Shown: positions 47,508 to 64,000 of the stretch, piece after piece
Position numbering within the stretch: the first letter of the stretch is position 1
Layout: every line of letters begins with the position of its first letter
Virus record (IMG/VR): IMGVR_UViG_3300013936_000013
Coordinates: 77,246 to 141,245 of that record
Origin: a virus
Taxonomy: Duplodnaviria; Heunggongvirae; Uroviricota; Caudoviricetes
DNA: 64,000 nucleotides
Strand: one strand, 5' to 3'
Notes under the pieces: generated by a model
Seen by the model: only the letters and a program-made list of their open reading frames with translations
Database searches by the model: none
What the model was told of the DNA's origin: nothing
Translations under genes and position numbers: made by a program

Positions 47508-47511
47508 TTTT

Positions 47512-47578: not shown

Positions 47579-47777
47579 ATATGTAGCTTTAGATATTCTT
47601 TTAAAGTATAAAACACCCTAAAAAGGTCTTTGCTTAGAGTATTTTACTCGAAATTTGCAATGATTAATCTAGTTCCATTGGAGGACTAGTTATAATGAGG
47701 TCAGTAAATTATTATCTATTAGAAAGGATGATGATTAAAAGCGTTGTTAATTAATCAAAAGAGAAAGAAGGCTAGCA

Positions 47778-48980: not shown

Positions 48981-48981
48981 T

Positions 48982-49512: not shown

Positions 49513-49514
49513 AA

Positions 49515-49556
49515 AATTGGGAGTTATTCGTAATTGAATAACTCCCAATTTTTTTA
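49515..49556. terminator. bidirectional terminator between plus-strand island and late minus-strand block
   Basis: aattgggagttattc...gaataactcccaatt then T-run. Confidence 0.7.
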
Positions 49557-49683
49557 TACATAGATATTATTTGCGGCAAGGATTTTTTTAACCTTATCTT
49601 TTAGTAAGCGAGGAACCTCCTCGAAAGTGCGTTCACCCGCAATAATTTTTTTTGCCCATAATTCAGCAATCATATTAAATACC

Positions 49684-50160
49684 TCATTGATATACTATTT
49701 CACTTAGCTCTAGAAGACAATCTTCTAAAGTTTTATTTGACTCATTTAGGCTTTTAACTTGCGCGGTCAATTCTGAATTAAGATTTTTTAATTCATCGTT
49801 TTCTTCTCCCAAAGTGTTTATTTTTTCTTTTAATTGATTGATTTCAGTTCTTTCACCAGTAGTAAATTCATAAACTCTTTCATTAGGATTCCCACCAGAA
49901 TATTTTTGAGTAGTGGCTACCCGCAAGTTTTTATTTTTTCGCATTTTAATCTTTAACTATTGATATTCTTTCTATGAAATACCAAGCAAAGAATACTCAT
50001 TTAGATCATAGACAGTATTCTAATCAGATGATAGCACTCCTTGAGCTTCATCCTCTTCGCAAAATAGCTTAAGATTATATTCCTCTTGATATTTAATCCA
50101 AGATGGATTTTTTAATAGGTCAACAATAAGACCTTTATGAATGACTTTATAGTACAACAT
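49684..50160 (-). CDS. hypothetical protein (~158 aa); 3 in-frame TAG
   Basis: GGAGATTAT RBS + ATG 50160; joins ORF 49684..49944 through TAGs. Confidence 0.4.
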
Positions 50161-50183
50161 ATAATCTCCTTATATAAAAAGAA

Positions 50184-50213
50184 AAATGGGAGCGCATAAT
50201 GCGCTCCCATTTA
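50184..50213. terminator. terminator hairpin after giant gene
   Basis: atgggagcgc ataa tgcgctcccat with flanking A/T runs. Confidence 0.65.
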
Positions 50214-50214
50214 A

Positions 50215-53200
50215 TTATTTCTTGCCAACAAAAATTGCAAAAGCGCAAGGGAAGTAAGAGTAAGCTGGATAGTTACTATTCCATTTACCTTCGCTATTGA
50301 CTGCACCGAAGCCATTAGGATAACTAATGAACTCTTGATTATCTTCATCTACATACTCAATATATGTAGAAGCTAACCAATAGTGCTAATTATCTATATT
50401 AACAGCTTCTTCTGGACGTCTACGAACTCTTGAAGGATCGTCAGTAAAGACTGCAAAAGTAGAACCTTCTTGAGCGTAGATTGGATATCTATCAACATCC
50501 ATTGCAATCTTAGAAATTTCTGCATTATTTGGAATCCAAACTTTATCCATATCAGTAATGAATGTAGAAGTATTATTCATTTTAATTGTAGTTCCAGTAT
50601 TACTGTTACTCCAATAATCATTAAAGAACTTTTCTTCATCAGACTCTGCGGCTAAGCTAGTTCCGCCAGTTACCTGAATTTCAGCGTAGTTACCAACTGA
50701 GCTCTTACGAGATTTAGGACTGATAACTGCCTGAACTAAACCAGGCAATAGATTATAAATATCATTATTAGCAATATCTCTTAGCTCACTGTACCACCAA
50801 CCGCCATTATTCCAAGATTCTCCTTTTAAGAAAGTATTGATTCTAACAGTTGCTCCTTTAACAACAGGGATTGTTAATGTTGCATCTTCAGTTAGCTCAG
50901 TAAAGCCTGCGGCGTTCCATACTGCGTCGCCATTATTCTTAGTCAAAGTAACTCCAGAAGATAGCTTAGATTGAGTTAAATCATAAACAACAGAAGTCTC
51001 ATCTGGAGAGGTAACTGTAATCTTTGTAAGTAATGGACGACCTAATCTATCTACATTATTAAAAGTTGGAGCAATAGTTACAGAAGTAATATCTTCAGTA
51101 TGCTCATATACGAAATTATCACTATCAGCATCAATATTACCAATTTTATAGCAATATGCTTTTCTTTCTTGACTATTCATTTGATATGCTTTCAAAGATA
51201 GCATATTAGTCAATAGAGTGATACCAGAAGCAGACATATCGGTTAGAACCAGCTGTTCTGTTTGTTTTACACCACGCTCATCAGGATTTAAAGTAACACT
51301 CTTACCCTAACCGAGCTTCCAACCATAGTCTGAATAACTCTTCGTACCTGCGGTGACCGTGTTAACTACCGCTTGGATCTAACCCCAAGAGCAATCAGAG
51401 AACTCCATGGGCTCTGCACTAGGTAGTTCAATCTTAGAAGCAACTGCAAAGCAGTAGATGGTACCATCAACCGCATTAACGCTTAGAGACTCCATATTAT
51501 CCAAAGAAGCAAAGTTTTCAGGGAACTTAAAGGTATCTGTTCTCCAACCAGGCACTCTGACTATTGTCCATCCACCTTTTAGCCACTTGCTCAAATCTTC
51601 ACCCTTTAACGGGTCTTCAACTGTGCTCATATTTACATTAGCTCCATATGCTATTGCAGTAGAAGGATTACCAGAAGCATCTTCTTCAGTACCTGTAATA
51701 GAGAAGTATGGAGTTGCAGAATTTAGATTTTTAACAGCTGTATCATAATCCTGTTTAAAGAAATAAATGTTATAGTGACGTAGCTTAGGTGTATAAGTTG
51801 CAGTTAAAGTGCGGTCTTCAGTTACTTTTAGATAACTACCGTTCCAAGAGCTATAATAATAATTGTACTGAGCATCTGTTGGTTTAGTAGGAGTATCAAT
51901 TACCACATAATCTAATCCACCAAAATTATTTGGGTCATATGCTGTTCCATCTGCATTATAACCATTAAAGTTGATTGGATTATAGCCATCTTCTCCACCA
52001 ATAATTTGATAAGAACATAAAGTAGTTCCATCATAATTCTTAAATGTTACGGTATATAGATGACGACCATATAGAATACTAATATTAGGCATATAGCGTT
52101 TATAAGCTGCCATCGCCGCATCTTCAATTTGAGCAACATCAATAGTACCAGAAATGTATGGATTAGTGTTACCATTATAAATGATACCAGCTTCATCCAA
52201 TCCTTTACAGCTTAAAAGTTGGTTAAATACTTCTTCACCATTGCCATCAAGATGCCATTGAATATCAATTAATCTCAAAGTCTAAAGGTTCTTAGCTTGT
52301 TTGATAATATTTACCAATAGCTAGTCTGCAGATGGATCACATTCCTCAACTGTAATAGTTGAAAGACTATCATAACCTTGCAAGGTTAATACGCTCAAAT
52401 GCGATAGATTCTATAATTTAATATTAGTAATTGTTTTAGGCAATTTTAAAATCTCAATATTGCTATTAGCTGCAAGAGTGACAGAAGGAATATTAGTATT
52501 CTCTGCATAGAAGTATCTTAATGCAATACAGCTATTTAGTCCAATAGTAGTGTTTAAATAGGTTAAACCAGTTAGAACAATCTTCTTTAATAGATTACTA
52601 TTAAAGGAAATGTTAGTACCGTTAGCCCAAGCATTATTTTCATAACCTTCAACTTCGCTACCTAATAGAACTTCTTGCAATTTCTTAGCTTGAGAAATAT
52701 CCAACCAACTTAAATACGCGGGAGCCAGGTCTCCTAAGCTAGTAATCAGAGATGCATTGTAGACATAAGTCTCAACACCGCCAGAACCAGTTGAAGTAAA
52801 GTCAGGAGCTTTAACTGTTGTAGGAACTCCTCGCTTAGCTTTTGTTCTAATATAATCACCATTGCCATATTTTACTAAGATATACATATCAGAGTAAGGA
52901 GTAATAGTTAAATCTTGGTTAGGTGCAACAACTTTATTTTCAGTAGGCTTAGTGATACGCATCTGAATAGCATCGCCTACTGCGGTTGGACCTTCATACT
53001 TAGAACTCATATAGCGGTCTTGATAGAATAAGAACCAGTCACGTTGTAGTTGCTTATTTCCTAGCATCATAGAAATATAAGTTCTATCATTATCATTTAA
53101 GTATGGATTGATATATTTCTTAAACATATCTTCAATCCAAATAGCTTCACACCAGTTAGCTTGATAATCAGAGAATTTTTTACTTAAACGAAATGCGTTA

Positions 53201-56200
53201 AATGCACCTTCATTTTCTTTCTCTTGAACCATTTTCTTGATATCATCAGCAAAGCATTGTTCTAGATTAATCCATAGAACTGAGTCTTCGCCACCATATG
53301 CTTCACTACCATCGCGATATTCAATACCATAACTATGGCTTAAACGACCAATGTTATCAATACCGAGAGCAGTATCATTATCGTAGTCATATTTAAAGTG
53401 CCAATGTTTACCATCATCAGTTGCCATAAATACGTTTTTAGCACGGTTATCAACCATCAGATGACGTTCAGTAAAGATGTCTAGCCAAATGGCAGAATCT
53501 TTGATAAAATAATCTTCAAATTCAGCTTTAAATTTAGCTAATCTATATTCAGCAGTATCTGCGGTGTAGGTTTTTCCATCATAAACAACAGCCTAAGGTA
53601 GCGTATTACCTGTAGCCGCCGCAGTATCAGTTGAATTAACCCAAGCTACAACTCTATGCAGATTGTCAATATCAGTTTGAGTATAGCCTTTCTTTGGAAA
53701 TCTAAATTCAAATCCTTCTTCCCAAGCATCGTTACTAAAATCTGCAGATTTAAAAGAACAAAGGGCAGATTCATTAGTCAGGAACTCAACGCAGCATTGC
53801 TCAGGATATTTACTTCTATCTTGACCGAAAACATTATAATTAGTTTTATCATTATTCATGTTTGCTTTTGCATAGAAAGTTAATTCAGGGTTAGGGTCTG
53901 CTGTATTTCTATGGAAAATAATGATAGGTTGACCTTCAATGGTGCCACGAATTTTATTGGTAAAACCTTGATTGTGAAGTTCAGTAATTAGCTCATCACG
54001 TTGAGTTGTGCGGTCAGCCTTAGGCTCATAGCCTTTTGCCGCAGCCATTTCAAGCAATTCATCAAGCTGAGGATCAGAGATGTAAGGATCATAAATATTA
54101 TATTCATCTGTCAAAAGAACATTATTTGCCCCTTCAGAAGAAGCAACGTCAACTTTCATACAGAAGTAATCTACACCCAAACTCTTATCAGATATTGCAA
54201 AGGTGGCTTCTTTAGCTCCTGTGTCTGCATGATTAAAACCATCAACTTGGAAATCCATATTTAGGTTTAGAGCTGCTCGACCATAACCCGCAGAAGAAGT
54301 ACCTTGCATACCAATACCAACATTTTTAGAGGTGAAACTCTTTCTGTTGTTATTAGGATCTACATAAGTAACATCGCCACGAACAGGCGGATTGTTTCTA
54401 TCTTTAATTTTAGAAGTAGGGAAAATAAATGGATACTGACTAGAGTCAGAATTAATAATCATATATTTAGACTGTAATTTATCAAGAACAATGTTATGAT
54501 AAGCGTCATATATATTATTTCTCTGATAACGAGCAATAATTTCATCAGATGTTGGAGCATCAAGAATAAAATTATTTAAGACTTCATATTGGTCAAGAAC
54601 TTTATTGTAAGTCTTAATTAAATAAACATCTAAGTCACATTCAGAAGAACCTAGAGTAATACTAACAGGATTAGTCTGAATGAATAAGTCGTCATTCTCA
54701 TAGATTGCGGCAGAGCAAGGAATACCTTGTAGATACCATAGAATCAAACTCTTTTGAGTTGAAGGATAAACAACTAAATCCATTTCAATATAAGAATCTT
54801 CCTTATAAGGAACTTCCATTTCAATATCACGAGAATTAAAGACACCGCGGTTGGCAAATAATCTTAAACCAACATTACTTGATTCATCAAAACAATTAAT
54901 AATTTCAGTATCATAGTTAATACTATTTCTGCACTTAAAAATCATTTTAATTGCTTTACCACTATTTTTAAAGTCCTATCCAAATAGTTTTAGTGGAATA
55001 GTAACTTTATCATTACTTGCCTTAATTCTTAGGACTGTTGCTCCATCTTCATCAGACTACCAGCCACCATTAACCCAGTCAAAGCTAGTTGGGAACTCAG
55101 TAGAATAGCCATTAGAAGTCCAAGAATTATAATTAGACTGCGCATTACTTCTACCAACAGCAGAAAAGTTTGCTTCAAGACTATTTGTAATAGGTTTAGC
55201 ATCAATTTCAAGTGCATTGACCTTCAATTCAATAGTTCTAGATTGAGTACCACATCTAATAATTAAGCGGCGGGCGTAGGTATTAGTAAACTTTAAGGTC
55301 CAGTGTTGTAAAGTTCGATCTGGATTAATAGCAATTGAACTAGCTCTTACCCATTCACCTGCACCATCATTAGCGTCAGTATTAAAATACCATTCTTCAA
55401 GTGAACACTGTCTATTATTGTTATTATTAGCTGTACTGTAATTTGGATCCCAGATTAAATAAGGGATAGAAACATTATCATATTCAGTAACCTCGGTCTA
55501 AGCAAAAGAAGAAGCAATAATAGGAGTTCCATTACCGCGACTAACAAAGATAATTTCATAATATAGTTCATTACTAATTAACTCTGCGCCATTTAAATTT
55601 GCGGTGACCCAGACTTTTAAAGGATATGCGCCATGTCCTTTGAAAGGAATATCCTGAGTTGAAATGCCACCAGAAGTAGAACTGATAATATCTTTAGACC
55701 AAATGACAGTTTTATTAGTTCCTGCGGAATACAATTCAAAGTGTACTGTCTTTTCAAAGCTACCGCCCGCAGTTACAGTATAGGTGAAAACCGCATTATC
55801 ATAGTATGCTTGATAGGCGTTAAAAGTAGAAGTCAGTTCTAGAGATACTGTTGTAATAGTCCATCTTAAACTTCTTACATTACCAGCATTATCAGTTAAA
55901 ATAACCTGAACTGAGTTACTACCACGAATTAGAGAATCAGTAATATCATAAGAATAATAACCTTGAGTTACATTAGTATTCTAATCTACTTTAACTCCAT
56001 TAACATTGATAACAATAGAACCATTGCCTGTTGATGCTCCATCGTCACTATATACAGAAGACCAGTTAAAACCAATATAAGTTTTTTCTTCACCTTTGTA
56101 AATAGTAGTCATGCTTGACGGAATCTCTGGGTCGTAGGTCATTTTGAAAGTAATACCATTACCGCCAGAACCGCCACCTGTACCTTCAATAGTAATAGTA

Positions 56201-56793
56201 CCTAGGGGAACCGCATCACCTTTTTTATACCATGAAAGCTCATGTGTAGTATTATCAAATTCAATATCTAAGTCTTCAAGAGCATTTAGATTTGCTACTG
56301 TTTCTTTTAATGCGGCGAGGTCATCGGCGGAAGCATAGTTAGGTAAAATACCATTAACTTCATCCTTAGTATAATAACCAGATAAGTCGGTCGCAATGGA
56401 TACACCACCAGTAATTCTTTCACCATTGCTTAGTAGATAGAATTTACTATCATCATCAATTTCATAGCCATCTGCTTTCTTTTGGGTGTTCTAATCTAAA
56501 GTATCTAGATAATCTAGAATTAGACTCAGCTGAGTTCTAACTGCAGTACCCGCAGATGTATATTTTTCGCCATTAAATTTATCAAATTTTTCATTAGTTA
56601 AGCCTTGACGAATATCCTCTAGTTCAGTTTGGCGATTATTACTTGAAAAAGTAGGATATTTAGTTAAAAGATTGTCAACTCTATCATTCAGAGTCTTCAT
56701 TGAATCTGACAGATTTCCGCCAGTCTCACCGACATATTCTTTGTTTGCTTCTGCTAGTAGGCGCAAGGCTTCTACAATAGATATTTTACTCAT
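50215..56793 (-). CDS. giant 2192-aa structural/adhesin-like protein (Ig-like and LRR-like regions; probable tail fibre or host-recognition protein); 12 in-frame TAG
   Basis: ORFs 56491.., 55498.., 53593.., 52411.., 51379.., 50386.. all share one frame; every gap between them was translated by hand and holds only TAG codons, no TAA/TGA; TAA in-frame just upstream of ATG 56793; stop TAA 50215. Confidence 0.7.
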
Positions 56794-57404
56794 ATCTGTT
56801 TACCATAGACCTCCTATAACATTTGTTTTACTTCAAGGTCATCTACAAAAATTAGCTCAAAACTCGCAGAATCTTTAATTTTTTCCATGTCATCTACATC
56901 AGGATTATATAATCCATCGCCAATAGAAAGATTAGTATTGATTGTAGAATTCCACCTATAACATTCTGTATTAGTGGTAGTATCTACATCAATAAAAATT
57001 AAAGAAAATTGAATGCGACCAGGAGCAGTAGTAATTGAGCCTTTAATTATCCAAGAAAATTCAACCATATCAGGATTATCTTCCATGACTTGCATATCCT
57101 CAATTGGGTAGAATCCATCTACCTTAGCTCCCGCATTATACCATTTTACTAATTTAGATGAACATTTTAAAATATCATATCCATCAATAAATCTAGGGCA
57201 ATTAAAAGTGATTGCATTAGAGTTATGGTCTGTGCGGATACCTACAACAGAATGAAATCCAGGCTGTAAAGTAAATGTACGAGTTAATGCATCTACAAGG
57301 ATAGGCGGTTCCTCATCTTGGAGAAAATTAGAAGTATCATTATTTATAATAGTGTCAAGACTTTGAGTAGAAATATCATTGATTAGTGATAAATAATCTG
57401 TCAT
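56790..57404 (-). CDS. hypothetical structural-module protein (204 aa); 1 in-frame TAG
   Basis: AAAAGGAGAG RBS + ATG 57404; reads through TAG 56814 to TGA 56790, overlapping start of giant gene. Confidence 0.5.
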
Positions 57405-57856
57405 AAAGTCTCTCCTTTTATCTCTTGTTTAATTCTTTCACAATCTTGAAGAATTTGATTACACAACATTGCATATTTCTAACACGCTTTGGTTAGTTGA
57501 GTAGAGGTATCTTCAGCAGGATTGTTTACAATATTGCTTGTGTAACCTGATTGTTTAATAAAAACTGTTTCAGCATTTGTAGTAATTAAATCACCACAAT
57601 AAATACTAACTTCAAAACTAGGACTTTTAATAACTTCTGCAGGAATATAACATTGATTATCTTTAAGACCATCTAATCCTAGTGTCTATTGATAAGTTTT
57701 CCCTTTATATGTAAATAAAGCAAAAACTGGATTTACCCATTCAGAAGTTTTAAAATTAAATGTTGCAATAAGATAGTTTTTACTACCTGCAACAAAATAA
57801 TCATTTGTAGTTTCTTTAGTTAGTTTTTGATGTGAAACATTAAAACGAATTTCCAT
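57401..57856 (-). CDS. hypothetical structural-module protein (151 aa); 2 in-frame TAG
   Basis: AAAGGAGGTAAAAGG RBS + ATG 57856; ATGA overlap with next gene; no ORF visible under the standard code. Confidence 0.45.
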
Positions 57857-57965
57857 AATCCTTTTACCTCCTTTATTATTCTATTAAAAATTAAAATATT
57901 ATTTTTATGATTTCCGCCCAAAAAGAAAAGAGGTTGAGATAAACCCAACCTCTAAAGAATAAATC

Positions 57966-59501
57966 TTAGACAACCTGCTGATAGCGGTCAGCCATCAGGG
58001 TTTCAACACAGAGATCCCAACCAGTCTTTCCAGTCAGAACACTCTTAAAGATAACAGGAGAGAAACCACTCACGAAAGAAACATCAGGACCTGCATCCAG
58101 AATGTTCGCATCACCGCGAGCATTAACATTCCAGTAAACCAGCTTAGGCAACCTCTTGCCATAAGCAGCCCACTTCCGACGAATCTGCTCCATCTCAGTA
58201 GAAGCAGACTCCTGAGTCCACCGCTTAGAATAATCACTCCAAGAACCAGTACCCTGATCAATCTGCATATCACTAATGACTACGATAGTCTTAGGAATGT
58301 CAGACTCCTTAACACCGGGAGTCAGAGCGGTATTCAACAGCAGGTCAAAAACAGCTTCCAGATTGGTGTTATCGCACAGATTAGTACGATAAATGCGGCG
58401 GCACTTATCAACAAAATCAATGCCCTCAATCTTAATCAGCTGAGGCTTACTAGCAAAGCTAATGTAATGATTGTGGAAAGGACCTCCGATTCGCTCTGCG
58501 CAATACATACCCAGAGAAATTGCCACATTCATAGGTGCGCTAGCTTCACTACCAGTCATAGAACCAGAAGTATCAACAACACACATCATAGAACAATCCT
58601 TACCATTCAGGTAGTCAGGCAGATTAGCCCAATACTTATTAATCATTGCACGGTCAACTTCATCCAGAGAGCTGTTGCCCCAGTAATCACAGCCCTTAAC
58701 CGCCTTAGCTACGACCTCATAAGGATACAGAACAGAAGCATTCACGCTCTTGGTGGTATCCTTAGCAAACTTCTCATACTTCTTTGCGATAATGTCACGA
58801 CGGGCAAATGCATTCTTATAGATGAAACCCGCACGAGAAGGAATCTTATCAAACTCAATCTCATCCCAACGGTTCTCAGACATCAGACGCTCAACAATAT
58901 TGATACGACGACGCAGCTCAGACAGAGTCTTACGATACTCCTTATGAGACAGACCCAAATCCTTGCGGATTCGAGCGGCAGCCCACTTAGTCTTTGCAGA
59001 AGAAGCATTCTCAGAAGGCATCCACTTACCCAGCAGGGAAGGAGTCTTACACTGAATATCCAGACGCAACTGCTTCTTAATCAAATTCAGAGCACTCTGA
59101 TAAACAGGAGTATCAATAGTGGAATAAATCAAGTCATCCCAACGTCCATACTCAGAAACGTTATCCAGATTAACCTCTGCACGAGCAGGGTCATTCTGAC
59201 ACAGCCAATTAAAACAAATACGGAAGAACTCACGCTCACCCTGACCACCGCGGCAATCACGCAGATAAAACAAGCACTTCATTGCCAAAGTAGCATCCTC
59301 TTCATAGGCGTTCTTAAACAGAAGAATCTTATCTGCAGCACCGCGCTTACGATAAGCGCCACCCAGCGCAAACATATCATAAACTGCGGAATTGGTAGTC
59401 TTATGAGCCAATGCGCCATTCTCAGTACGGGTAAAGTTAGAAGCGTTAGACAGAGTATTCATAAAAGTATTCATCATATATCTCCTTTTTTCTCTTAACA
59501 A
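57966..59501 (-). CDS. von Willebrand factor A (vWA) domain protein, DUF2828-like
   Basis: MIDAS motif CVVDTSGSMTG; 511 aa; locally higher GC and different codon usage than neighbours. Confidence 0.6.
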   Translation of the reverse strand: MLREKRRYMMNTFMNTLSNASNFTRTENGALAHKTTNSAVYDMFALGGAYRKRGAADKILLFKNAYEEDATLAMKCLFYLRDCRGGQGEREFFRICFNWLCQNDPARAEVNLDNVSEYGRWDDLIYSTIDTPVYQSALNLIKKQLRLDIQCKTPSLLGKWMPSENASSAKTKWAAARIRKDLGLSHKEYRKTLSELRRRINIVERLMSENRWDEIEFDKIPSRAGFIYKNAFARRDIIAKKYEKFAKDTTKSVNASVLYPYEVVAKAVKGCDYWGNSSLDEVDRAMINKYWANLPDYLNGKDCSMMCVVDTSGSMTGSEASAPMNVAISLGMYCAERIGGPFHNHYISFASKPQLIKIEGIDFVDKCRRIYRTNLCDNTNLEAVFDLLLNTALTPGVKESDIPKTIVVISDMQIDQGTGSWSDYSKRWTQESASTEMEQIRRKWAAYGKRLPKLVYWNVNARGDANILDAGPDVSFVSGFSPVIFKSVLTGKTGWDLCVETLMADRYQQVV

Positions 59502-59542
59502 GCGGTTATTATCATAACCTTTTTAATTAGGCGTTTTTATTC

Positions 59543-60043
59543 TTAACGACGATTGATAACATCATAATCCATTTCAGTATCAAATGGCATCACAATAGAG
59601 ACATTCTTACCATAATTCTCAGAGCGACTATCATTCTTAGCTGCAGCAACATCATGCTCCAACTCAGCATCAAGCAGCATTGCAGCAAACTCATTTGCGG
59701 CAGGATAACAGTGAGCCATTGCGGCAGCCATATCCTTATGATAACTACGAAGCAGCCGCTGACGTGCAACCCGCATACCCTCAGTCAGATTGAACTCATC
59801 ATCTGCTGCGCAATAAGCAACGCCATGATAAGACTCTTCCATCGCGGGGACACCATGCATAAAAATAACGCCGACTTTATCGCCAAGAGCTCGAATCTTA
59901 TTCCAAGCATCCGACCGAGTATTCTTCATAACTGCGGTAACAATGCCCTTATAAGGATAGCCATTAAAAATACCAGTACGTTCTGCATCATAGTAATAAC
60001 CAATCTTAGAACCATTACGGGGTGCAATATAAGTCATAGCCAT
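59543..60043 (-). CDS. hypothetical protein (166 aa) in GC-richer island
   Basis: Intact ORF, GC-richer. Confidence 0.4.
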   Translation of the reverse strand: MAMTYIAPRNGSKIGYYYDAERTGIFNGYPYKGIVTAVMKNTRSDAWNKIRALGDKVGVIFMHGVPAMEESYHGVAYCAADDEFNLTEGMRVARQRLLRSYHKDMAAAMAHCYPAANEFAAMLLDAELEHDVAAAKNDSRSENYGKNVSIVMPFDTEMDYDVINRR

Positions 60044-60075
60044 AATTAAATATTTCTCCTTTTATCTCTTAAAAA

Positions 60076-60489
60076 TTACTGCATCATTTTTGCAATAACA
60101 GAATTAATCATCTTACCGTCCGCCTTACCCTTTAGAGCCTTCATAGCAGGCGGAATTACCTCTTTCTTATTCATGGACTTAATATCTGTAAACATTTCAG
60201 AAATAAAATTCTGAATTTCATCTTCAGACATCATCTTAGGAAGGAACTGAGAAACAAAAGCAATCTCAGATGTAAGTGCGGTTTTCTCAGCTTCATTGCG
60301 CGCATAGCCTAAGGTCTCCCGCAATGCCTTAACTTCTTTTTGGAAAGTTGCGATTACTTTTGCTTCATCACCACCATCTTTAATTACCTTCTTAGCTACT
60401 GACAAAAAGTAGCTTGCATGATTTTCAACCTGCTTATCACCGCTCTTTAGAGCTGCAATCCGCATTTCATTTAGAGTATCAATAATCAT
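60076..60489 (-). CDS. yqeY: GatB/YqeY-domain protein
   Basis: 137 aa, all-helical with KALRETLGYARNEAEKTALTSEIAFVSQFLP...AMKALKGKADGKMI pattern typical of YqeY/GatB C-terminal domain. Confidence 0.5.
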   Translation of the reverse strand: MIIDTLNEMRIAALKSGDKQVENHASYFLSVAKKVIKDGGDEAKVIATFQKEVKALRETLGYARNEAEKTALTSEIAFVSQFLPKMMSEDEIQNFISEMFTDIKSMNKKEVIPPAMKALKGKADGKMINSVIAKMMQ

Positions 60490-60512
60490 TTTTCTGTTTT
60501 CCTTTCCCTTAT

Positions 60513-60540
60513 TGTATATATATTATAACATTTTTTTAAG
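60513..60540 (-). promoter_or_regulatory. conserved TGTTATAATATATA promoter
   Basis: Plus attgtatatatattataacatttttttaag. Confidence 0.5.
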
Positions 60541-60689
60541 AAATAATCAATAAGTAATTTTTAGACATAAAAAAATGAGCAAAAATTTAAATCAATATTA
60601 GAAATAAATCCTTGCTCTATTGTTTAAAAGAACAAGATAACCATGAATCCAAAACCAAGCGGATTAATTGCTGTTGTTATCTTTACTAT

Positions 60690-60764
60690 TGGAGCAACAG
60701 ATGGGAGTCGAACCCACATCATCGACTTGGAAGGACGATGTACTAGCCGTTATACGACTGCTGC
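60690..60764 (-). tRNA. tRNA-Gly (anticodon UCC), CCA encoded
   Basis: Acceptor GCAGCAG/CTGTTGC, T-arm GTGGG-TTCGACT-CCCAT, anticodon loop CTTCCAA; one mismatch in anticodon stem. Confidence 0.55.
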
Positions 60765-60884
60765 ATATCTAGCGAATTACGTATCGCTAATGCGGATTGA
60801 ACTCCGGTAGTCCGCACGAAGATTCATCAGGTAAGAGAACCCGCAACCTTTGATACTCTTTTATCTCTTAATCAAGTATCCTGT

Positions 60885-60961
60885 TGGTGCTGGAGATAGG
60901 ATTTGAACCTACGGTCTATGGATTACAAAGCCATTGCATTAGCCAGCTATGCTACTCCAGC
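60885..60961 (-). tRNA. tRNA-Thr (anticodon UGU), CCA encoded
   Basis: Acceptor GCTGGAG/CTCCAGC, D-arm GCAT/ATGC, loop TTTGTAA, T-arm GTAGG-TTCAAAT-CCTAT. Confidence 0.6.
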
Positions 60962-61070
60962 ATATAAAAACAAGAGACATCAAGTAAAAGCAAACTTGTA
61001 ATTAATAAATATGGAGCTTTAATTTTGAAATTGCTGTACGTCTCTTTTAATATTTCACTAGGCTTTTATT

Positions 61071-61141
61071 GATATTGTTTGGACTCGAACCAAAAATCTT
61101 AGATTTACATTCTAATGCTATACCCATTTAGCTACAAAGGC
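61071..61141 (-). pseudogene. degenerate tRNA-like element (anticodon loop ATGTAAA = GUA, Tyr-like) with poor acceptor pairing
   Basis: Good D-arm (GCTA-AATGGGTA-TAGC), anticodon arm (TTAGA/TCTAA) and T-arm (TTTGG-TTCGAGT-CCAAA), but acceptor strands GCCTTTG vs CAATATC pair at only 4 of 7. Confidence 0.3.
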
Positions 61142-61186
61142 GAAGCCGCCTACCTTATTTTGCTGTAAAAGCCTATTATTTAATTT

Positions 61187-61540
61187 TTAATCTTCAAACA
61201 GATAAGAATAAGCATCATAGTCGAAGCCATAATTCTCACAAATTTCTTTTAATTCATCGAGATTATGAATTTCTTTTGCCCAGTACTGAATCCAAGATTC
61301 AATAGCATCCATATAAGCATCTTCCAGTTCAGATTCTCGATAATCTTCTGAAAGACCATACTCTTCTGGATTATCCATAATCATTCCTCTGTCAGGAAGA
61401 CCATGATAGCCTTCATAAGACTGATAATCTTCAATAGCACAATCATATGCGGCTTCGGTTGCTTCTTCCACAGACTCAAATTCTGCGATGTCATAAACAC
61501 AAGGTTCATTACAAGAACCAGCAAAAAGAGCAAAAATCAT
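61187..61540 (-). CDS. highly acidic hypothetical protein (117 aa)
   Basis: Intact ORF, Asp/Glu/Tyr-rich. Confidence 0.4.
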   Translation of the reverse strand: MIFALFAGSCNEPCVYDIAEFESVEEATEAAYDCAIEDYQSYEGYHGLPDRGMIMDNPEEYGLSEDYRESELEDAYMDAIESWIQYWAKEIHNLDELKEICENYGFDYDAYSYLFED

Positions 61541-61563
61541 ATTAAAACCCTTTCTTTTATGCG

Positions 61564-61638
61564 TGGAGCGGTTACAGAGAATCGAACTCTGATCTAGTGC
61601 TTAGAAGGCACTTGCCTTGTCCTTTGGGCTATAACCGC
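61564..61638 (-). tRNA. tRNA-Arg (anticodon UCU), CCA encoded
   Basis: Acceptor GCGGTTA/TAACCGC, anticodon stem AGTGC/GCACT, loop CTTCTAA, T-arm CAGAG-TTCGATT-CTCTG. Confidence 0.8.
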
Positions 61639-61643
61639 AAACC

Positions 61644-61847
61644 TTAAACGTGAAAAACGTAAATTGCTTTTTCGCTCAAAGGAGTAACGGTAGTAAATAC
61701 TTTTACAATTTCACAATCGGAAAAGTAATCATAAGCATCTCTTCGAGCTTCCTCTTTTGATTCTGCAAAAAGAATTACTTTATGAGAAGTAGTATTATAT
61801 TTATCATTAATACGCGAACGAGTAACAAGAAAAACTTGATAAAACAT
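61644..61847 (-). CDS. hypothetical small protein
   Basis: AAGGAG RBS before second ATG (61847). Confidence 0.35.
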   Translation of the reverse strand: MFYQVFLVTRSRINDKYNTTSHKVILFAESKEEARRDAYDYFSDCEIVKVFTTVTPLSEKAIYVFHV

Positions 61848-62035
61848 TATATCTCCTTCAAACAATCATTAATTCGCTTAACATCTACATCAGTTAAGTC
61901 ATCCTCGGAAAAACGATATGCTCGAAGAATATCTTGTACAATTTCTTCTGCATATTCTTTTGAGTTTTTTCTAAGAGCTTTAATAATCTGATTAGTAATC
62001 AAATTACTCTCTTGCATATAAGCTATATTTATCAT
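61847..62035 (-). CDS. hypothetical small protein
   Basis: AAAAGGAG RBS + ATG 62035; longer upstream ORF start would overlap tRNA-like element. Confidence 0.35.
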   Translation of the reverse strand: MINIAYMQESNLITNQIIKALRKNSKEYAEEIVQDILRAYRFSEDDLTDVDVKRINDCLKEI

Positions 62036-62044
62036 ATAGACTCC

Positions 62045-62102
62045 TTTTAATAGCGGTAGCACGAAGAATTGAACTCCGGCTACTAGCGTATTAACCACTC
62101 TA
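62045..62102 (-). pseudogene. truncated tRNA-like element (58 nt; acceptor + D-arm + T-arm, no anticodon arm)
   Basis: GGTAGCA...TGCTACC acceptor, D-loop AGTGGTTAA, T-arm CGGAG-TTCAATT-CTTCG, but only 9 nt where the anticodon arm should be. Confidence 0.25.
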
Positions 62103-62194
62103 CTATGCTACCACATAAAAACAAGATGAATATTTTATACATATCTTTTTCTTGTAAGAATTATAAATATTATATTGCTGTATTCATCTTTAAC

Positions 62195-62268
62195 TGGTTG
62201 AGCCAGCAGGATTCGAACCTACGATGGAGGAGTCAAAGTCCTCAGCCTTACCACTTGGCGATGGCTCA
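62195..62268 (-). tRNA. tRNA-Gln (anticodon UUG), CCA encoded
   Basis: Acceptor TGAGCCA/TGGCTCA (U1-A72), anticodon stem GAGGA/TCCTC, loop CTTTGAC, T-arm GTAGG-TTCGAAT-CCTGC. Confidence 0.8.
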
Positions 62269-62274
62269 ATATAT

Positions 62275-62346
62275 AGGACTATTTGGATTCGAACCAAAAA
62301 ATACTTGTGTCAGAGACAAGTGCCTTAACCATTTGGCAATAGTCCT
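62275..62346 (-). tRNA. tRNA-Gln (anticodon CUG)
   Basis: Acceptor AGGACTA/TAGTCCT, anticodon stem ACTTGT/ACAAGT, loop CTCTGAC, T-arm TTTGG-TTCGAAT-CCAAA. Confidence 0.75.
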
Positions 62347-62418
62347 TCAAAACAAAGCTAGATTTATTTTTAATCAAGCTATTAAAATATTTTTAATTGC
62401 AGTTCTAGCTTTTAGATA

Positions 62419-62517
62419 ATGGTTGGGGATGAGAGACTCGAACTCTCACACCATCCGTCAGAGGGATGGGCTCTGGTGGTTTTAGAGACCACTGCTTTAA
62501 CCGTTAAGCAAATCCCC
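62419..62517 (-). tRNA. amber-suppressor tRNA (anticodon CUA), tRNA-Gln-like acceptor, ~96 nt (99 with encoded CCA), with 28-nt extra region
   Basis: Acceptor TGGGGAT/ATCCCCA (U1-A72, as in tRNA-Gln), D-arm GCTT-AACGGTTA-AAGC, anticodon stem GTGGT/ACCAC, loop CTCTAAA (U33, CUA, A37), then 28-nt insertion containing hairpin CCATCC-CTCTGAC-GGATGG (Gln CUG-type loop), T-arm GAGAG-TTCGAGT-CTCTC, A73, CCA. Confidence 0.7.
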
Positions 62518-62682
62518 ATTATCTTTATTTCTCTTAGATTGCTTTGCGTTATATCGCTTAGCCGCCTTGCAATTTGAACATCCATGTTTATTTTTGCAAT
62601 AACAAAGACAATAATCTTCTAACCAAAAATGGTATGGAATTGAAGGTTTAATTTTACGACGAGGAATCTTTTTACCTTTCAT
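62497..62682 (-). CDS. hypothetical basic Zn-ribbon protein (61 aa), overlaps 5' end of suppressor tRNA by ~20 nt
   Basis: Intact ORF with CxxC...CxxC; reality uncertain because of tRNA overlap. Confidence 0.25.
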   Translation of the reverse strand: MKGKKIPRRKIKPSIPYHFWLEDYCLCYCKNKHGCSNCKAAKRYNAKQSKRNKDNGDLLNG

Positions 62683-62726
62683 AATTTTATTATACCTTAT
62701 TTTTTATGAAAAATCAATTTTTCTAT

Positions 62727-62800
62727 TGGCAGGTCTACTCCGAATCGAACAGAGACACGATGTTTTGGAGACATCAGTACTACCATTATACGATAGACCC
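62727..62800 (-). tRNA. tRNA-Trp (anticodon CCA), CCA encoded
   Basis: Acceptor GGGTCTA/TAGACCT, anticodon stem GATGT/ACATC, loop CTCCAAA, T-arm CTCTG-TTCGATT-CGGAG. Confidence 0.75.
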
Positions 62801-62857
62801 ATAAAATGGGGAACCAACCGAAGCCAATTCCTTGAAAGCATTTCTGCTTTTGTGCAC

Positions 62858-62935
62858 TGGTACTTCTGAAGGGACTTGAACCCTTAGAAAAGTTGAGTTT
62901 GAATCAACCGCGTCTGCCAATTCCGCCACAGAAGC
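62858..62935 (-). tRNA. tRNA-Leu (anticodon CAA), short variable arm, CCA encoded
   Basis: Acceptor GCTTCTG/CAGAAGT, long D-loop GAATTGGCAGA, anticodon stem GTTGA/TCAAC, loop TTCAAAC, T-arm AAGGG-TTCAAGT-CCCTT, A73. Confidence 0.65.
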
Positions 62936-62938
62936 ATA

Positions 62939-63012
62939 TGGAGGGCAGCCGGGGAGTTGAACCCCGCTCCTTGGATTAACAGTCCATTGCACTACCGATG
63001 TGCTAGCCGCCC
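62939..63012 (-). tRNA. tRNA-Asn (anticodon GUU), CCA encoded
   Basis: Acceptor GGGCGGC/GCTGCCC, D-arm GCAC/GTGC, loop CTGTTAA, T-arm CGGGG-TTCAACT-CCCCG. Confidence 0.7.
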
Positions 63013-63022
63013 AAAATGAGGT

Positions 63023-63160
63023 TTATGTAACCTCAAAATCAAGAACAATATAATTGCGCTGGTAAAAATTCAACTCAATCAGAGTATGAACTACACACCA
63101 ATGCTTGGTGTTATAATCATCAAGGTAAATAATAGTGATAGTCAAATTAGCAGTAGTCAT
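63023..63160 (-). CDS. hypothetical small protein (45 aa)
   Basis: AAAAGGAG RBS + ATG 63160; terminator-like hairpin gaggtt-acataa-acctc at its 3' end. Confidence 0.3.
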   Translation of the reverse strand: MTTANLTITIIYLDDYNTKHWCVVHTLIELNFYQRNYIVLDFEVT

Positions 63161-63202
63161 AAACAAACTCCTTTTTAACTTTTCTATTTGTTTTCCTTTA
63201 TT

Positions 63203-63230
63203 ACATATATATTATAACATTTTTTTAAGA
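63203..63230 (-). promoter_or_regulatory. conserved TGTTATAATATATA promoter
   Basis: Plus ttacatatatattataacatttttttaag. Confidence 0.5.
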
Positions 63231-63251
63231 AAAAATCAATAGATATTTTTC

Positions 63252-63596
63252 TTAACGCCTATAAAAGTAAGGATACCAATACTTTTTAAGAAATTCCTCT
63301 TCAGACAGAGCCGCCATTTTTTCATACCATGACCATCCTAAAGTTTTTGCTTTTTCACAGTAGCTAGCATATCTAGCTTTTGCTTCATCAATAGACTCAT
63401 AAGAGATATAATCAGTAATATCCCAAGAGTCATTAAACTTTTGATAATCATTTTTTGCGCGAGGAGCGGTTTCCTCAGCTTCTATGCTTCTATTAAGCAC
63501 ACGTCTATATCGCCGATTAGCTCGGATTCGCGCTTCTTTATTACTGCCATGCCGCGGATGCTTACAAATAGGATGTTTCTTATAGCTTCTACTCAT
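63252..63596 (-). CDS. hypothetical basic protein (114 aa)
   Basis: Intact ORF, Arg/Lys-rich N-terminus. Confidence 0.4.
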   Translation of the reverse strand: MSRSYKKHPICKHPRHGSNKEARIRANRRYRRVLNRSIEAEETAPRAKNDYQKFNDSWDITDYISYESIDEAKARYASYCEKAKTLGWSWYEKMAALSEEEFLKKYWYPYFYRR

Positions 63597-63613
63597 AGTA
63601 CCCTCTCCTTTTA

Positions 63614-63688
63614 GTATGTCCTTTGAGACTTGAACTCAAACTCTATTCCGTATGAAGAAATTGCATTAACCAATTATGCTAAGGACAC
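63614..63688 (-). tRNA. tRNA-Met (anticodon CAU)
   Basis: Acceptor GTGTCCT/AGGACAT, D-arm GCAT/ATGC, anticodon stem ATTTC/GGAAT, loop TTCATAC, T-arm TTGAG-TTCAAGT-CTCAA. Confidence 0.7.
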
Positions 63689-63879
63689 ATATTCAAGGCG
63701 AATATATAATCACTAGTCTTTTAATTAAATCATTAATATTAAAAATATCAGTACATTATGTTATATATTTGCTGTATTCGCCTTATTTTCAACAAGACCA
63801 TTAATATTATTACATCTTCTTAAATCCCAAATTTAATGATTTTTAATAAATAATATTTTGCTGTGATGGTCTTTACTAC

Positions 63880-63954
63880 TGGGGGTGAGTAAGAGAATCG
63901 AACTCTTATGAAAGGAACCACAATCCTCCGTTCTACCATTGAACTAACAAACCC
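63880..63954 (-). tRNA. tRNA-His-like (anticodon GUG) with extra 5' G and two acceptor-stem mismatches, CCA encoded
   Basis: D-arm GTTC-AATGGTA-GAAC, anticodon stem GAGGA/TCCTT, loop TTGTGGT, T-arm AAGAG-TTCGATT-CTCTT, C73 with possible G-1; acceptor GGTTTGT/ACTCACC has U-C and U-U mismatches. Confidence 0.45.
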
Positions 63955-63971
63955 ATAAGACTAAAACGTCT

Positions 63972-64000
63972 TGGTAGAATGTGTCAGATTCGAACTGCTC
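63972..64000 (-). tRNA. partial tRNA (3' half only; cut by window edge)
   Basis: tgg-t-agaatgt-gtcag-attcgaa-ctg... = CCA, acceptor, T-arm CAG..-TTCGAAT-CTGAC. Confidence 0.4.

What the first reader, a model, noticed from the sequence alone, without database searches (positions are those of the whole stretch)
57966..60489. GC-richer three-gene island (vWA/DUF2828-like, unknown, GatB/YqeY-domain) adjacent to the tRNA cluster that holds the suppressor
Base composition and codon usage here differ visibly from the rest of the window (for example runs such as gacaacctgctgatagcggtcagccatcaggg), and none of the three genes contains TAG. That suggests recent acquisition. YqeY/GatB C-terminal domains bind tRNA and are tied to Glu-tRNA(Gln) transamidation. 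A phage depending on a Gln suppressor tRNA and carrying such a domain next to its tRNA-Gln genes might use it to secure charging or amidation of the CUA tRNA. That would matter most in a host that makes Gln-tRNA by the indirect GatCAB route, where GluRS anticodon recognition would otherwise reject a CUA anticodon. This is speculative.
Basis: inference. Interest (0 to 1): 0.55.

Follow-up and report, generated by a model that had tools for sequence, protein, structure and literature searches.

The report
Ro60-like/YqeY operon capping phage tRNA array
The GC-rich "island" is a real but old three-gene operon (a tRNA-binding YqeY domain, a small unknown protein and a Ro60-like RNA-binding ring) that sits at the end of transfer-RNA gene arrays in many phages, so it is an RNA-handling accessory of the tRNA array rather than a recently imported helper for the phage's altered genetic code.

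Summary
Window 57966-60489 is the GC maximum of the window (0.426 against 0.342±0.021). It carries three TAG-free genes next to a tRNA array that contains a CUA suppressor, and TAG is read as Gln. The domain calls also hold: YqeY (PF09424) and DUF2828+DUF7788. The DUF2828 protein's model matches only Ro60/TROVE structures.

"Recent acquisition" is not supported. The operon is shared at about 91% nucleotide identity with two close relatives. It is also syntenic in a relative whose YqeY is only 44% identical. DUF2828 genes sit about 8 GC points above their flanks in 63 of 64 phage loci.

The Ro60-like gene is a regular, co-oriented companion of phage tRNA arrays. A tRNA lies within 3 kb in 51 of 60 viral loci, and standard-code cultured phages show the same arrangement.

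YqeY does not track suppressor tRNAs locally. In 78 DUF2828 loci the counts are 1 of 26 with a suppressor against 4 of 52 without. It also occurs in standard-code phages. The charging hypothesis is therefore unsupported, though not excluded.

Noticed in passing: the suppressor's long extra arm ends in a loop that copies the Gln CUG anticodon loop. This occurs in 8 of 8 long-arm CUA tRNAs and 0 of 125 other long tRNAs.

The parts
60498..60561 (-). Promoter/leader cassette of the operon: TTGATT, 17 nt, TG-n-TATAAT at 60550-60522, then a purine-rich ribosome-binding site before the YqeY ATG
   Evidence: The promoter scan gives a 10/12 match with an extended -10. This is one of three copies of a 64-nt repeat; the others are at 44956-45019 and 63187-63250. 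The same element recurs in relatives. Promoter activity is inferred, not shown.
60076..60489 (-). Free-standing YqeY (GatB-tail-like) domain protein, 137 aa
   Evidence: PF09424 at 1.3e-10 (42 bits, cut-off 27) and PHROG 1460 at 1.7e-19. B. subtilis YqeY 1ng6 at 1.1e-6. The conserved LPKMMSEDEI and LKGKADGK motifs are present.
59543..60043 (-). Small protein of unknown function, 166 aa, with the motif G-x-A-x-C-x3-D-x-F-[DN]-x3-G-x2-[IV]-A-x2-R
   Evidence: No Pfam, PHROG or NCBIfam hit. A full HMMER search finds 196 representatives. hhalign gives 97.8% probability (E 1e-12) to a family of about 116-aa proteins found inside tRNA arrays in 24 of 80 DUF2828 loci. It is duplicated in tandem in L263. 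The model has pLDDT 74 and no PDB fold match.
57966..59477 (-). Ro60/TROVE-like RNA-binding protein (DUF2828 helical-repeat part plus DUF7788 vWA domain), 503 aa
   Evidence: PF11443 at 2e-28, PF25043 at 2.4e-37 and PHROG 850 'RNA-binding protein' at 1.7e-120. The AlphaFold model has pLDDT 78.8. The top 12 PDB matches are all Ro60/TROVE, including the Ro60 of Thermus phage phiLo, with E 6e-7 to 1.5e-4. The MIDAS residues D302, S304, S306, T371 and D403 are invariant.
57929..57953 (-). Intrinsic-terminator-like hairpin (10-bp stem followed by a T-run), 13 nt after the stop codon
   Evidence: Similarity to the 91%-identical relatives ends at 57966.
60690..63953 (-). Co-oriented tRNA array upstream of the operon: 12 ARAGORN calls in the window. 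The array continues beyond the window end.
   Evidence: Relatives have 26-28 tRNAs in the same region.
62423..62519 (-). CUA (amber) suppressor tRNA with U1:A72, A73 and an encoded CCA. Its 28-nt variable region forms a hairpin whose 7-nt loop reads CUCUGAC.

Best explanation
The region is a single operon: its own sigma-70-type promoter, then YqeY, a small unknown protein and a Ro60-like protein, then a terminator. It closes the phage's co-oriented tRNA array. It is an old, vertically kept part of the array module, not a recent import.

Its core is a Ro60/TROVE-like ring protein with a vWA domain. By analogy with Ro60-Y RNA particles, this protein would bind structured or misfolded small RNAs. 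Here those would most plausibly be products, precursors or damaged forms of the phage tRNAs, or tRNA-like RNAs from the array. It would then pass them to host nucleases or repair enzymes, or use such a particle to blunt a host defence. YqeY, a free copy of the tRNA-binding tail of GatB, would supply generic tRNA binding in the same pathway.

Shown: the operon anatomy, the family memberships, the fold similarity, the conservation and the linkage to tRNA arrays. Inferred: RNA binding, the RNA clients and the physiological role.

The GC excess is a family-wide codon-level trait of the Ro60-like gene. Its cause is unknown.
For: Anatomy:
- Promoter at 60550-60522, short gaps between genes, terminator at 57953-57929.
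- The promoter cassette is repeated in front of part of the tRNA array and of another operon.

Fold:
- All 12 best PDB matches are Ro60/TROVE.
- The MIDAS motif is intact.
- Cultured-phage homologues are annotated 'Ro-like RNA binding protein'.

Linkage to tRNA arrays:
- Of 60 viral loci with at least 3 kb on both sides, 51 have a tRNA within 3 kb and 37 within 1.5 kb.
- Every tRNA in these loci is co-oriented with the gene, and the nearest one lies upstream in 52 of 54 loci.
- The same arrangement is seen in the standard-code phages Salmonella SP116, Listeria LP-125, Bacillus PK-3, Vibrio nt-1 and Enterococcus EF1.
- In the YqeY-seeded control loci, none of 38 has a tRNA within 3 kb.

Age:
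- About 91% nucleotide identity in two relatives, the same as the flanks.
- YqeY, two middle-gene paralogues and DUF2828 follow tRNA-Gly(UCC) in a relative whose YqeY is 44% identical. There the operon lies beside an RlaP-like nucleotidyltransferase, an RNA ligase and phosphatases.
- Listeria LP-125 has RtcB and an RNA ligase within 4 kb.
- GC offset: slope 1.02, +0.082, positive in 63 of 64 loci.

Literature:
- A phage Ro60 binds phage-encoded Y-like RNAs and host PNPase (PMC12135203).
- Bas63 gp130, a Ro60-like protein directly upstream of the tRNA genes, counters the Ppl defence system (PMC11482910).
- ROT/TROVE proteins are described as RNA-repair platforms in jumbo phages (PMC7824862).
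Against: - No RNA partner was identified. No Y RNA or YrlA-type match reached E <= 0.1 in 57000-64000.
- The Pfam TROVE model itself does not match the protein.
- TM-scores to Ro60 are only 0.39-0.50.
- Three of eight cultured phages examined (LeBron, Fusobacterium FNU2, Staphylococcus Alsa_1) have the gene with no tRNA nearby.
- Most sampled viral loci come from related gut phages, so part of the linkage may be inherited gene order rather than functional coupling.
- The role of YqeY is inferred from homologues only.
Confidence: 0.65

Rival explanations
1. YqeY, possibly with its operon partners, binds the phage's CUA suppressor tRNA. This secures its glutamylation or transamidation (ND-GluRS plus GatCAB) or its glutaminylation (GlnRS) by host enzymes, and so enables TAG=Gln decoding of the late genes.
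For: - YqeY homology is confirmed.
- A YqeY domain fused to Deinococcus GlnRS raises affinity for tRNA-Gln (PMC1865053).
- TAG is read as Gln.
- The suppressor has a tRNA-Gln-like acceptor end.
- The operon is free of TAG and has the same promoter type as the array.
- In this phage family the operon always accompanies an array that contains a suppressor: the window, L001, L002 and L263.
- Among three relatives, only the recoded lineage has YqeY.
- How suppressors get charged is an acknowledged open question (bioRxiv 10.1101/2021.08.26.457843).
Against: - None of 38 other viral YqeY loci has a suppressor within 10 kb.
- In DUF2828 loci, YqeY is present in 1 of 26 with a suppressor and 4 of 52 without.
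- None of 15 further loci carrying long-arm CUA tRNAs has YqeY.
- YqeY occurs in the standard-code phages Klebsiella FBKp34 and Brevibacillus Sundance, away from tRNAs.
- The co-occurrence within the family cannot be separated from inherited gene order.
- The suppressor may carry its own cis-acting identity device.
Confidence: 0.12
2. The region is a recently acquired foreign island, as its composition suggests, with no integrated role in this phage.
For: - It is the GC maximum of the window.
- GC3 of the DUF2828 gene is 0.435 against a mean of 0.25.
- Similarity to relatives breaks at its 3' edge, at 57966.
Against: - The break at 57966 belongs to the replaced tail-fibre module on the other side. 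The island itself is shared at 90-92% identity, like the tRNA region.
- The gene order is conserved in L263.
- The GC offset is constant across 63 of 64 loci, and gene GC tracks the resident genome with slope 1.02.
- YqeY in L263 is below its locus GC, 0.311 against 0.338.
- No mobility genes or flanking repeats specific to the island were found.
Confidence: 0.04
3. The Ro60-like protein is chiefly an anti-defence factor, as reported for Bas63 gp130 against the Ppl system. Its position by the tRNA array reflects co-regulation of counter-defence cargo (phage tRNAs also counter tRNA-cleaving defences), not RNA quality control.
For: - PMC11482910: deleting g130 sensitises Bas63 to Ppl.
- FelixO1-type homologues are 30% identical to the window protein and lie directly upstream of the tRNA array.
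- RNA-repair genes lie nearby in L263 and LP-125.
Against: - The evidence is a single preprint on a distant homologue, and the mechanism is unknown.
- This reading overlaps with the best explanation rather than excluding it.
- It does not account for YqeY or the middle gene.
Confidence: 0.15

Closest known systems
Ro60 (Rsr)-Y RNA ribonucleoproteins, including the Ro60 of Thermus phage phiLo (PDB 9KOP/9L5Y; PMC12135203) and bacterial Rsr-YrlA-PNPase (PMC4201824)
   Same: - Helical-repeat ring plus a C-terminal vWA domain with an intact MIDAS motif.
- The best structural matches are all Ro60/TROVE.
- The gene is encoded next to small structured, tRNA-like RNA genes on the same strand.
   Different: - No match to the Pfam TROVE profile; the protein belongs to DUF2828/DUF7788.
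- No Y-RNA-type match nearby.
- The neighbours are bona fide tRNA genes in arrays of up to about 30.
- Sequence identity to solved Ro60 structures is 10-15%.
Bas63 gp130 and the FelixO1-type 'vWFA / RNA-binding protein' (PMC11482910)
   Same: - Same family: about 30% identity over 96% of the length.
- Directly adjacent to the tRNA array and co-oriented with it.
   Different: - In FelixO1-type phages the gene precedes the array; here it follows it.
- No YqeY or middle-family gene was annotated or seen beside it in SP116.
- Those phages use the standard code.
- That Bas63 gp130 is the orthologue of the SP116 gene is inferred from position, not tested here.
YqeY / GatB C-terminal tail domain, including the YqeY appendix of Deinococcus GlnRS (PMC1865053) and PHROG 1460 'tRNA amidotransferase'
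   Same: - Profile match above the Pfam threshold.
- Conserved C-terminal motifs.
- About 140 aa and free-standing, like bacterial YqeY.
   Different: - A very divergent lineage. Only 14 word-sharing relatives were found, and the nearest bacterial ones are 30-36% identical.
- No GatB catalytic part, so the PHROG name 'amidotransferase' overstates what is there.
- It lies in an operon with a Ro60-like gene rather than with rpsU.
'Code-change modules' of recoded phages (suppressor tRNA + aaRS + release factor in Jade phages; bioRxiv 10.1101/2021.08.26.457843)
   Same: - A cluster written in the standard code that contains the suppressor tRNA.
- It lies next to late genes that use TAG.
   Different: - No aminoacyl-tRNA synthetase or release factor was recognised among the proteins of the window that were read or scanned; not all ORFs were scanned.
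- PMC10607447 reports no synthetase for the Phassvirus group.
- The protein genes here are not known translation factors.
Proposed genus 'Phassvirus' (phAss-1, BK046881, BK025033; PMC10607447)
   Same: - 133-141 kb gut phages with TAG=Gln.
- 28-36 tRNAs, including CUA suppressors.
- Relatives differ in their tail-fibre genes.
- Relatives named in the paper (an Enterocloster phage and Enterococcus EF1) share replication genes with the window.
   Different: - Membership was not tested directly, because those genomes are not in the searched collections.
- The paper does not mention YqeY, Ro60-like proteins or the shape of the suppressor.

Membership tests
YqeY (PF09424) / GatB_YqeY tail domain | Profile match above the curated threshold over most of the domain | tested here: met
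   PF09424 scores 42 bits against a cut-off of 27, covering residues 5-134 of 137. PHROG 1460 at 1.7e-19. PDB 1ng6 at 1.1e-6.
YqeY (PF09424) / GatB_YqeY tail domain | Conserved C-terminal motifs (LP..MSEDEI and LKGKADG) | tested here: met
   Alignment A5 has invariant P84, M87, I92, G121, K122 and D124.
YqeY (PF09424) / GatB_YqeY tail domain | Binds tRNA (the D-loop/elbow region, as the GatB tail does) | not testable with these tools
   This needs binding assays.
Ro60 / TROVE RNA-binding proteins | Helical-repeat ring followed by a vWA domain | tested here: met
   The model has pLDDT 78.8. The 12 best PDB matches over the full length are all Ro60/TROVE, E 6e-7 to 1.5e-4. TM-scores are only 0.39-0.50, so ring closure itself is not established.
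Ro60 / TROVE RNA-binding proteins | MIDAS motif (DxSxS...T...D) in the vWA domain | tested here: met
   D302, S304, S306, T371 and D403 are invariant in 20 and in 51 homologues.
Ro60 / TROVE RNA-binding proteins | Match to the Pfam TROVE sequence profile | tested here: not met
   No TROVE hit at E <= 0.1. Only DUF2828, DUF7788 and a weak VWA_2 hit appear. A profile of 20 homologues finds no Ro60 in the PDB by sequence.
Ro60 / TROVE RNA-binding proteins | A Y RNA (or YrlA-type tRNA mimic) encoded within a few kb on the same strand | tested here: inconclusive
   Rfam finds only tRNA matches in 57000-64000 at E <= 0.1. However, a co-oriented tRNA array, one tRNA-like element without an anticodon arm (62054-62112) and an odd long-arm tRNA all lie within 4.5 kb.
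DUF2828/DUF7788 (PHROG 850) | Both Pfam domains in order, full-length PHROG match | tested here: met
   There are more than 7900 database clusters and 705 cultured-phage records.
Recently acquired genomic island | Compositional deviation from the host genome | tested here: met
Recently acquired genomic island | Absent from close relatives, or less diverged than the flanks | tested here: not met
   Present at 90-92% identity in two relatives, like the flanks. Syntenic in L263.
Recently acquired genomic island | The deviation is specific to this genome rather than a trait of the gene family | tested here: not met
   The offset is positive in 63 of 64 loci, with slope 1.02. GC3 is +0.18 in 69 of 71 loci.
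Phage code-change module (suppressor tRNA + aaRS + release factor) | Suppressor tRNA for the recoded stop codon | tested here: met
   CUA tRNA at 62423-62519. TAG is read as Gln.
Phage code-change module (suppressor tRNA + aaRS + release factor) | A phage-encoded aminoacyl-tRNA synthetase or release factor next to the suppressor | not tested
   The ORFs around the array were not all scanned against profiles. None of the called genes within 10 kb carries such a Pfam domain. PMC10607447 reports no synthetase in the Phassvirus genomes.
Phage code-change module (suppressor tRNA + aaRS + release factor) | The component co-occurs with recoding or suppressors across phages (applied to YqeY) | tested here: not met
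   These cover local windows of +/-10 kb only; whole genomes were not available.

The most novel reading that the evidence does not exclude
The phage secures Gln identity for its CUA suppressor by two cooperating devices. In cis, the suppressor carries an extra arm whose 7-nt loop (Y-U-C-U-G-A-R) copies the anticodon loop of tRNA-Gln(CUG). In trans, the YqeY protein of this operon is a free copy of the tRNA-binding tail that GatB and Deinococcus GlnRS use on tRNA-Gln. It would hold this odd tRNA on the host's GluRS/GatCAB or GlnRS. On this reading the operon would be a code-change helper.

The cis part alone looks considerably more likely than the joint claim, perhaps about 0.4-0.5. The probability given here is for the joint claim that involves the island.
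Probability: 0.08. Interest if true: 0.85.

Novelty: new variant of a known kind. Interest (0 to 1): 0.42.

Why it matters
The verdict corrects a tempting inference. A GC-rich patch in an AT-rich phage is not always recent cargo. Here the excess is a stable trait of one gene family.

It also gives a gene found in hundreds of cultured phages and thousands of metagenomic ones (DUF2828, usually labelled 'hypothetical') a consistent genomic rule. It is a Ro60-like protein placed at the end of tRNA arrays and co-oriented with them, often near RNA-repair genes or a major-vault-protein homologue. That makes 'what do phage tRNA arrays need besides tRNAs?' testable in cultured systems such as FelixO1-type phages, Listeria P100-type phages and Enterococcus EF1.

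For stop-codon recoding, how suppressor tRNAs acquire glutamine remains open. This work weakens the YqeY answer. It points instead to a feature of the suppressor tRNA itself, which can be tested with simple aminoacylation assays.

Tried and rejected
- Nucleotide searches of the island and of 24 kb of the window against GenBank phages found nothing useful; the single hit was one tRNA.
- Sequence searches of the DUF2828 protein, alone and as a 20-sequence profile, against PDB chains found no Ro60. Only the fold comparison did.
- The middle protein has no Pfam, PHROG or NCBIfam family. It has no relative among viral contigs by pattern search, one marginal phage hit and no PDB fold match. Its function stays unknown.
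- The weak Rv2632c-like hits are below threshold and were not used.
- I first read the suppressor's long variable arm as a sign of Ser, Leu or Tyr identity. I rejected this after the codon-substitution test, in which all 17 differences were CAG or CAA, and because of the tRNA-Gln-like acceptor end.
- The crude ORF-length read-through ratios cannot establish whether a whole genome is recoded from a 20-kb locus. They were used only as a weak indication.
- A major-vault-protein gene was sought in the window and its close relatives and not found.
- No Rfam family was found in the GC-rich stretch at 36400-39500. The + strand ORF at 37052-38368 is probably the antisense of a 417-aa minus-strand gene.
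- Host identity and the host's Gln-tRNA pathway were not determined.
Full report
**1. What is at the coordinates**

Window 57966-60489 holds three co-oriented minus-strand ORFs of 503/511, 166 and 137 aa. At the 2.5-kb scale it is the GC maximum of the 64-kb window: 0.426 against 0.342±0.021, with the next best window at 0.391.

The excess lies mostly in the first two genes. DUF2828 has GC 0.449 and GC3 0.435. The middle gene has GC 0.433. YqeY is only slightly raised at 0.377.

None of the three genes contains TAG, but neither do 34 of the 55 ORFs in the window. The tRNA array at 60690-63953 is on the same strand.

**2. The phage and its code**

The window is part of a contig of about 141 kb. 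It carries replication genes (NrdD/G, a DnaE-type polymerase, DnaB, primase, ligase, topoisomerase) and then late genes full of in-frame TAG, for example a 2192-codon ORF with 12 TAGs.

I compared TAG-containing genes with two relatives about 90% identical in nucleotide sequence. All 17 positions where TAG aligns with a sense codon show CAG or CAA. So TAG is read as Gln.

The only CUA tRNA in the window is at 62423-62519. ARAGORN mislabels it by default, and Rfam scores it as tRNA at 55.5 bits.

The size, the code, the tRNA load and the variable tail fibres fit the 'Phassvirus' group described in PMC10607447. That paper guesses Clostridia hosts. I could not test membership directly.

**3. The three genes**

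- *YqeY.* It matches PF09424 above threshold, PHROG 1460 and B. subtilis YqeY 1ng6, and it keeps the C-terminal motifs. It has no GatB catalytic part.
- *The large protein.* It is DUF2828+DUF7788, PHROG 850. Its model has pLDDT 78.8. The model matches only Ro60/TROVE structures at the top of a PDB fold search, including the recently solved Ro60 of Thermus phage phiLo, with E 6e-7 to 1.5e-4 and TM 0.39-0.50. The vWA MIDAS residues are invariant. Sequence profiles alone do not reach TROVE.
- *The middle protein.* It has no named family. It belongs to a superfamily of small proteins with 196 representatives. hhalign ties that superfamily, at 97.8% probability, to a family of about 116-aa proteins found inside tRNA arrays in 24 of the 80 DUF2828 loci.

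**4. Operon anatomy**

A sigma-70-like promoter with an extended -10 lies at 60550-60522, followed by a purine-rich ribosome-binding site and the YqeY ATG. The gaps between genes are 32 and 65 nt. A 10-bp hairpin with a T-run follows the last stop codon.

The promoter/leader is one of three copies of a 64-nt cassette. Another copy lies in front of part of the tRNA array and the third in front of an operon at about 45.0 kb. Co-regulation is inferred from this, not shown.

**5. Not a recent import**

Two relatives share the operon at 90-92% nucleotide identity, the same as the tRNA region. Similarity stops at 57966 because the tail-fibre module on the other side (45059-57965) has been replaced.

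A more distant relative, whose YqeY is 44% identical, has the same order: sigma factor, tRNA array ending in tRNA-Gly(UCC), YqeY, two middle-family paralogues, DUF2828.

Across 64 distinct phage loci, DUF2828 GC tracks flank GC with slope 1.02 and an offset of +0.082±0.035. The offset is positive in 63 loci. It lies mainly at third codon positions, +0.18 in 69 of 71 loci.

The GC excess is therefore an equilibrium trait of the gene family. Its cause is unexplained.

**6. What the Ro60-like gene keeps company with**

Among 60 viral loci with at least 3 kb on both sides, 51 have a tRNA within 3 kb and 37 within 1.5 kb. Every tRNA in these loci is co-oriented with the gene. The nearest tRNA is upstream in 52 of 54 loci.

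By contrast, none of 38 YqeY-seeded loci has a tRNA within 3 kb.

Standard-code cultured phages show the same arrangement:
- Salmonella SP116, with the array 166 bp downstream
- Listeria LP-125, with RtcB and an RNA ligase nearby
- Bacillus PK-3
- Vibrio nt-1
- Enterococcus EF1, a relative of the window phage

Three others (LeBron, FNU2, Alsa_1) have the gene without nearby tRNAs. The relative PMBT24 has neither tRNAs nor any of the three genes.

Published work bears on the function:
- A phage Ro60 binds phage-encoded Y-like RNAs and host PNPase (PMC12135203).
- A Ro60-like gp130 directly upstream of the tRNAs in Bas63 counters the Ppl defence system (PMC11482910).
- ROT/TROVE proteins are described as RNA-repair platforms (PMC7824862).

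**7. Testing the YqeY-suppressor idea**

Against the idea:
- None of 38 other YqeY loci has a suppressor within 10 kb.
- With an HMM over all loci, YqeY is present in 1 of 26 DUF2828 loci with a suppressor and in 4 of 52 without. It is present in none of 15 further loci that carry long-arm CUA tRNAs.
- The standard-code phages Klebsiella FBKp34 and Brevibacillus Sundance carry YqeY away from any tRNA.

In its favour:
- Within this phage family, YqeY always accompanies an array that contains a suppressor.
- EF1 and PMBT24, which are not recoded, lack YqeY.

This family-level pattern cannot be separated from inherited gene order. Whole genomes were not available, so genome-wide co-occurrence is untested. 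I rate the idea at about 0.1.

**8. Most likely function**

The operon is an RNA-handling accessory of the tRNA array. A Ro60-like ring acts on tRNA-type RNAs, in quality control, in repair hand-off, or as a counter-defence particle. A generic tRNA-binding YqeY domain and a small partner protein accompany it. The anatomy, homology, conservation and linkage are shown. The RNA clients and the physiological role are inferred.

**9. Seen in passing, and relevant to the same question**

The suppressor has a 28-nt variable region that forms a hairpin, CCAUCC-CUCUGAC-GGAUGG. Its 7-nt loop has the form of a tRNA-Gln(CUG) anticodon loop.

Among 133 distinct tRNAs of at least 84 nt in all loci held at the time, UCUGA occurs in the variable region of 8 of 8 CUA tRNAs and 0 of 125 others. 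A pattern scan recovered 15 more such tRNAs. Because that set was selected by the motif, it only adds examples.

RNAalifold on 19 sequences predicts the extra hairpin with compensatory changes. It also shows an invariant G2:C71 and A or U at position 1.

I found no description of this feature in the papers searched. It may be a cis-acting way to keep Gln identity with a CUA anticodon. That is a hypothesis only.

Noticed in passing
window 62423-62519 (-); also L030, L034, L036, L060, L071, L082, and L154-L255 (15 loci): The CUA suppressor tRNA has a long extra arm whose 7-nt loop (Y-U-C-U-G-A-R) copies a tRNA-Gln(CUG) anticodon loop. UCUGA is in the variable region of 8 of 8 long CUA tRNAs and 0 of 125 other long tRNAs. 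Fifteen more examples came from a pattern scan. The hairpin is supported by compensatory changes. It may be a cis-acting Gln identity element. I found no description of it in the papers searched.
   Followed up: partly
window 62054-62112 (-): A 59-nt tRNA-like element is found by Rfam (44 bits) but not by ARAGORN. It has an acceptor stem, a D-like arm and a T arm but no anticodon arm. It lies inside the stretch that aligns with both close relatives at 84-88% identity. It is a candidate tRNA mimic or partner RNA.
   Followed up: partly
L005-L082 (DUF2828 loci): In 31 of 49 loci where a tRNA lies within 1.6 kb upstream, the tRNA immediately upstream of the Ro60-like gene is tRNA-Cys(GCA). At least 18 different sequences are involved, several 80-87 nt long with an extended variable arm, which is unusual for tRNA-Cys. 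The window lineage has tRNA-Gly(UCC) plus YqeY and the middle gene there instead.
   Followed up: no
L033, L040, L044, L045, L048, L051, L053-L055, L057, L059-L062, L066, L067, L071, L073-L076, L078, L079, L081: In 24 of 80 loci a gene of about 830 aa directly downstream of the Ro60-like gene is a major-vault-protein homologue (MVP_shoulder 7.4e-22, Vault_3 3.3e-8). A TROVE-like protein next to an MVP homologue recalls the protein set of eukaryotic vaults. It is absent from the window and its close relatives.
   Followed up: partly
L005-L082, and window 57966-59477: DUF2828 genes are systematically richer in GC3 than neighbouring genes: +0.18 in 69 of 71 loci. The whole-gene offset is +0.082 with slope 1.02 against flank GC. 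No explanation was found.
   Followed up: partly
window 45059-57965: The tail and tail-fibre module, including the 2192-codon ORF with 12 TAGs, has no nucleotide similarity to two relatives that are about 91% identical on both sides of it. The breakpoints are at about 45058 and exactly at 57966. This looks like a swapped host-range module.
   Followed up: no
window 44956-45019, 60498-60561, 63187-63250: There are three copies of a 64-nt promoter/leader cassette (TTGATT, 17 nt, TATAAT, then a ribosome-binding site), 77-86% identical to each other. Similar copies occur in relatives.
   Followed up: partly
window 40054-41630 (-); L263 16420-20426: An SPFH/Band-7 protein (4.4e-15) lies next to a Pol-beta-type nucleotidyltransferase that resembles the RlaP-like family seen in 25 DUF2828 loci. 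In L263 an RlaP-like gene, an RNA ligase and two phosphatases lie 3-7 kb downstream of the operon. These are RNA-repair-type cargo.
   Followed up: no
window 63252-63596 (-): This 114-aa protein with a basic N-terminus belongs to a family of about 104-114-aa proteins embedded in the tRNA arrays of 31 DUF2828 loci. It has no Pfam family.
   Followed up: no
window 61070-61141 and 62858-62935 (-): The tRNA-Tyr(GUA) is only 72 nt and the tRNA-Leu(CAA) only 78 nt. Both therefore lack the long variable arm normal for bacterial Tyr and Leu tRNAs, while the Gln-type suppressor has one.
   Followed up: no
window 21705-22643 and 27679-28578 (-): Two endonuclease-like ORFs sit among the replication genes. 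One has a GIY-YIG-type 'CYIG.S' motif. They are the most TAG-rich genes outside the late region, with 8 and 7 in-frame TAGs. The TAGs of the first are conserved in relatives.
   Followed up: no
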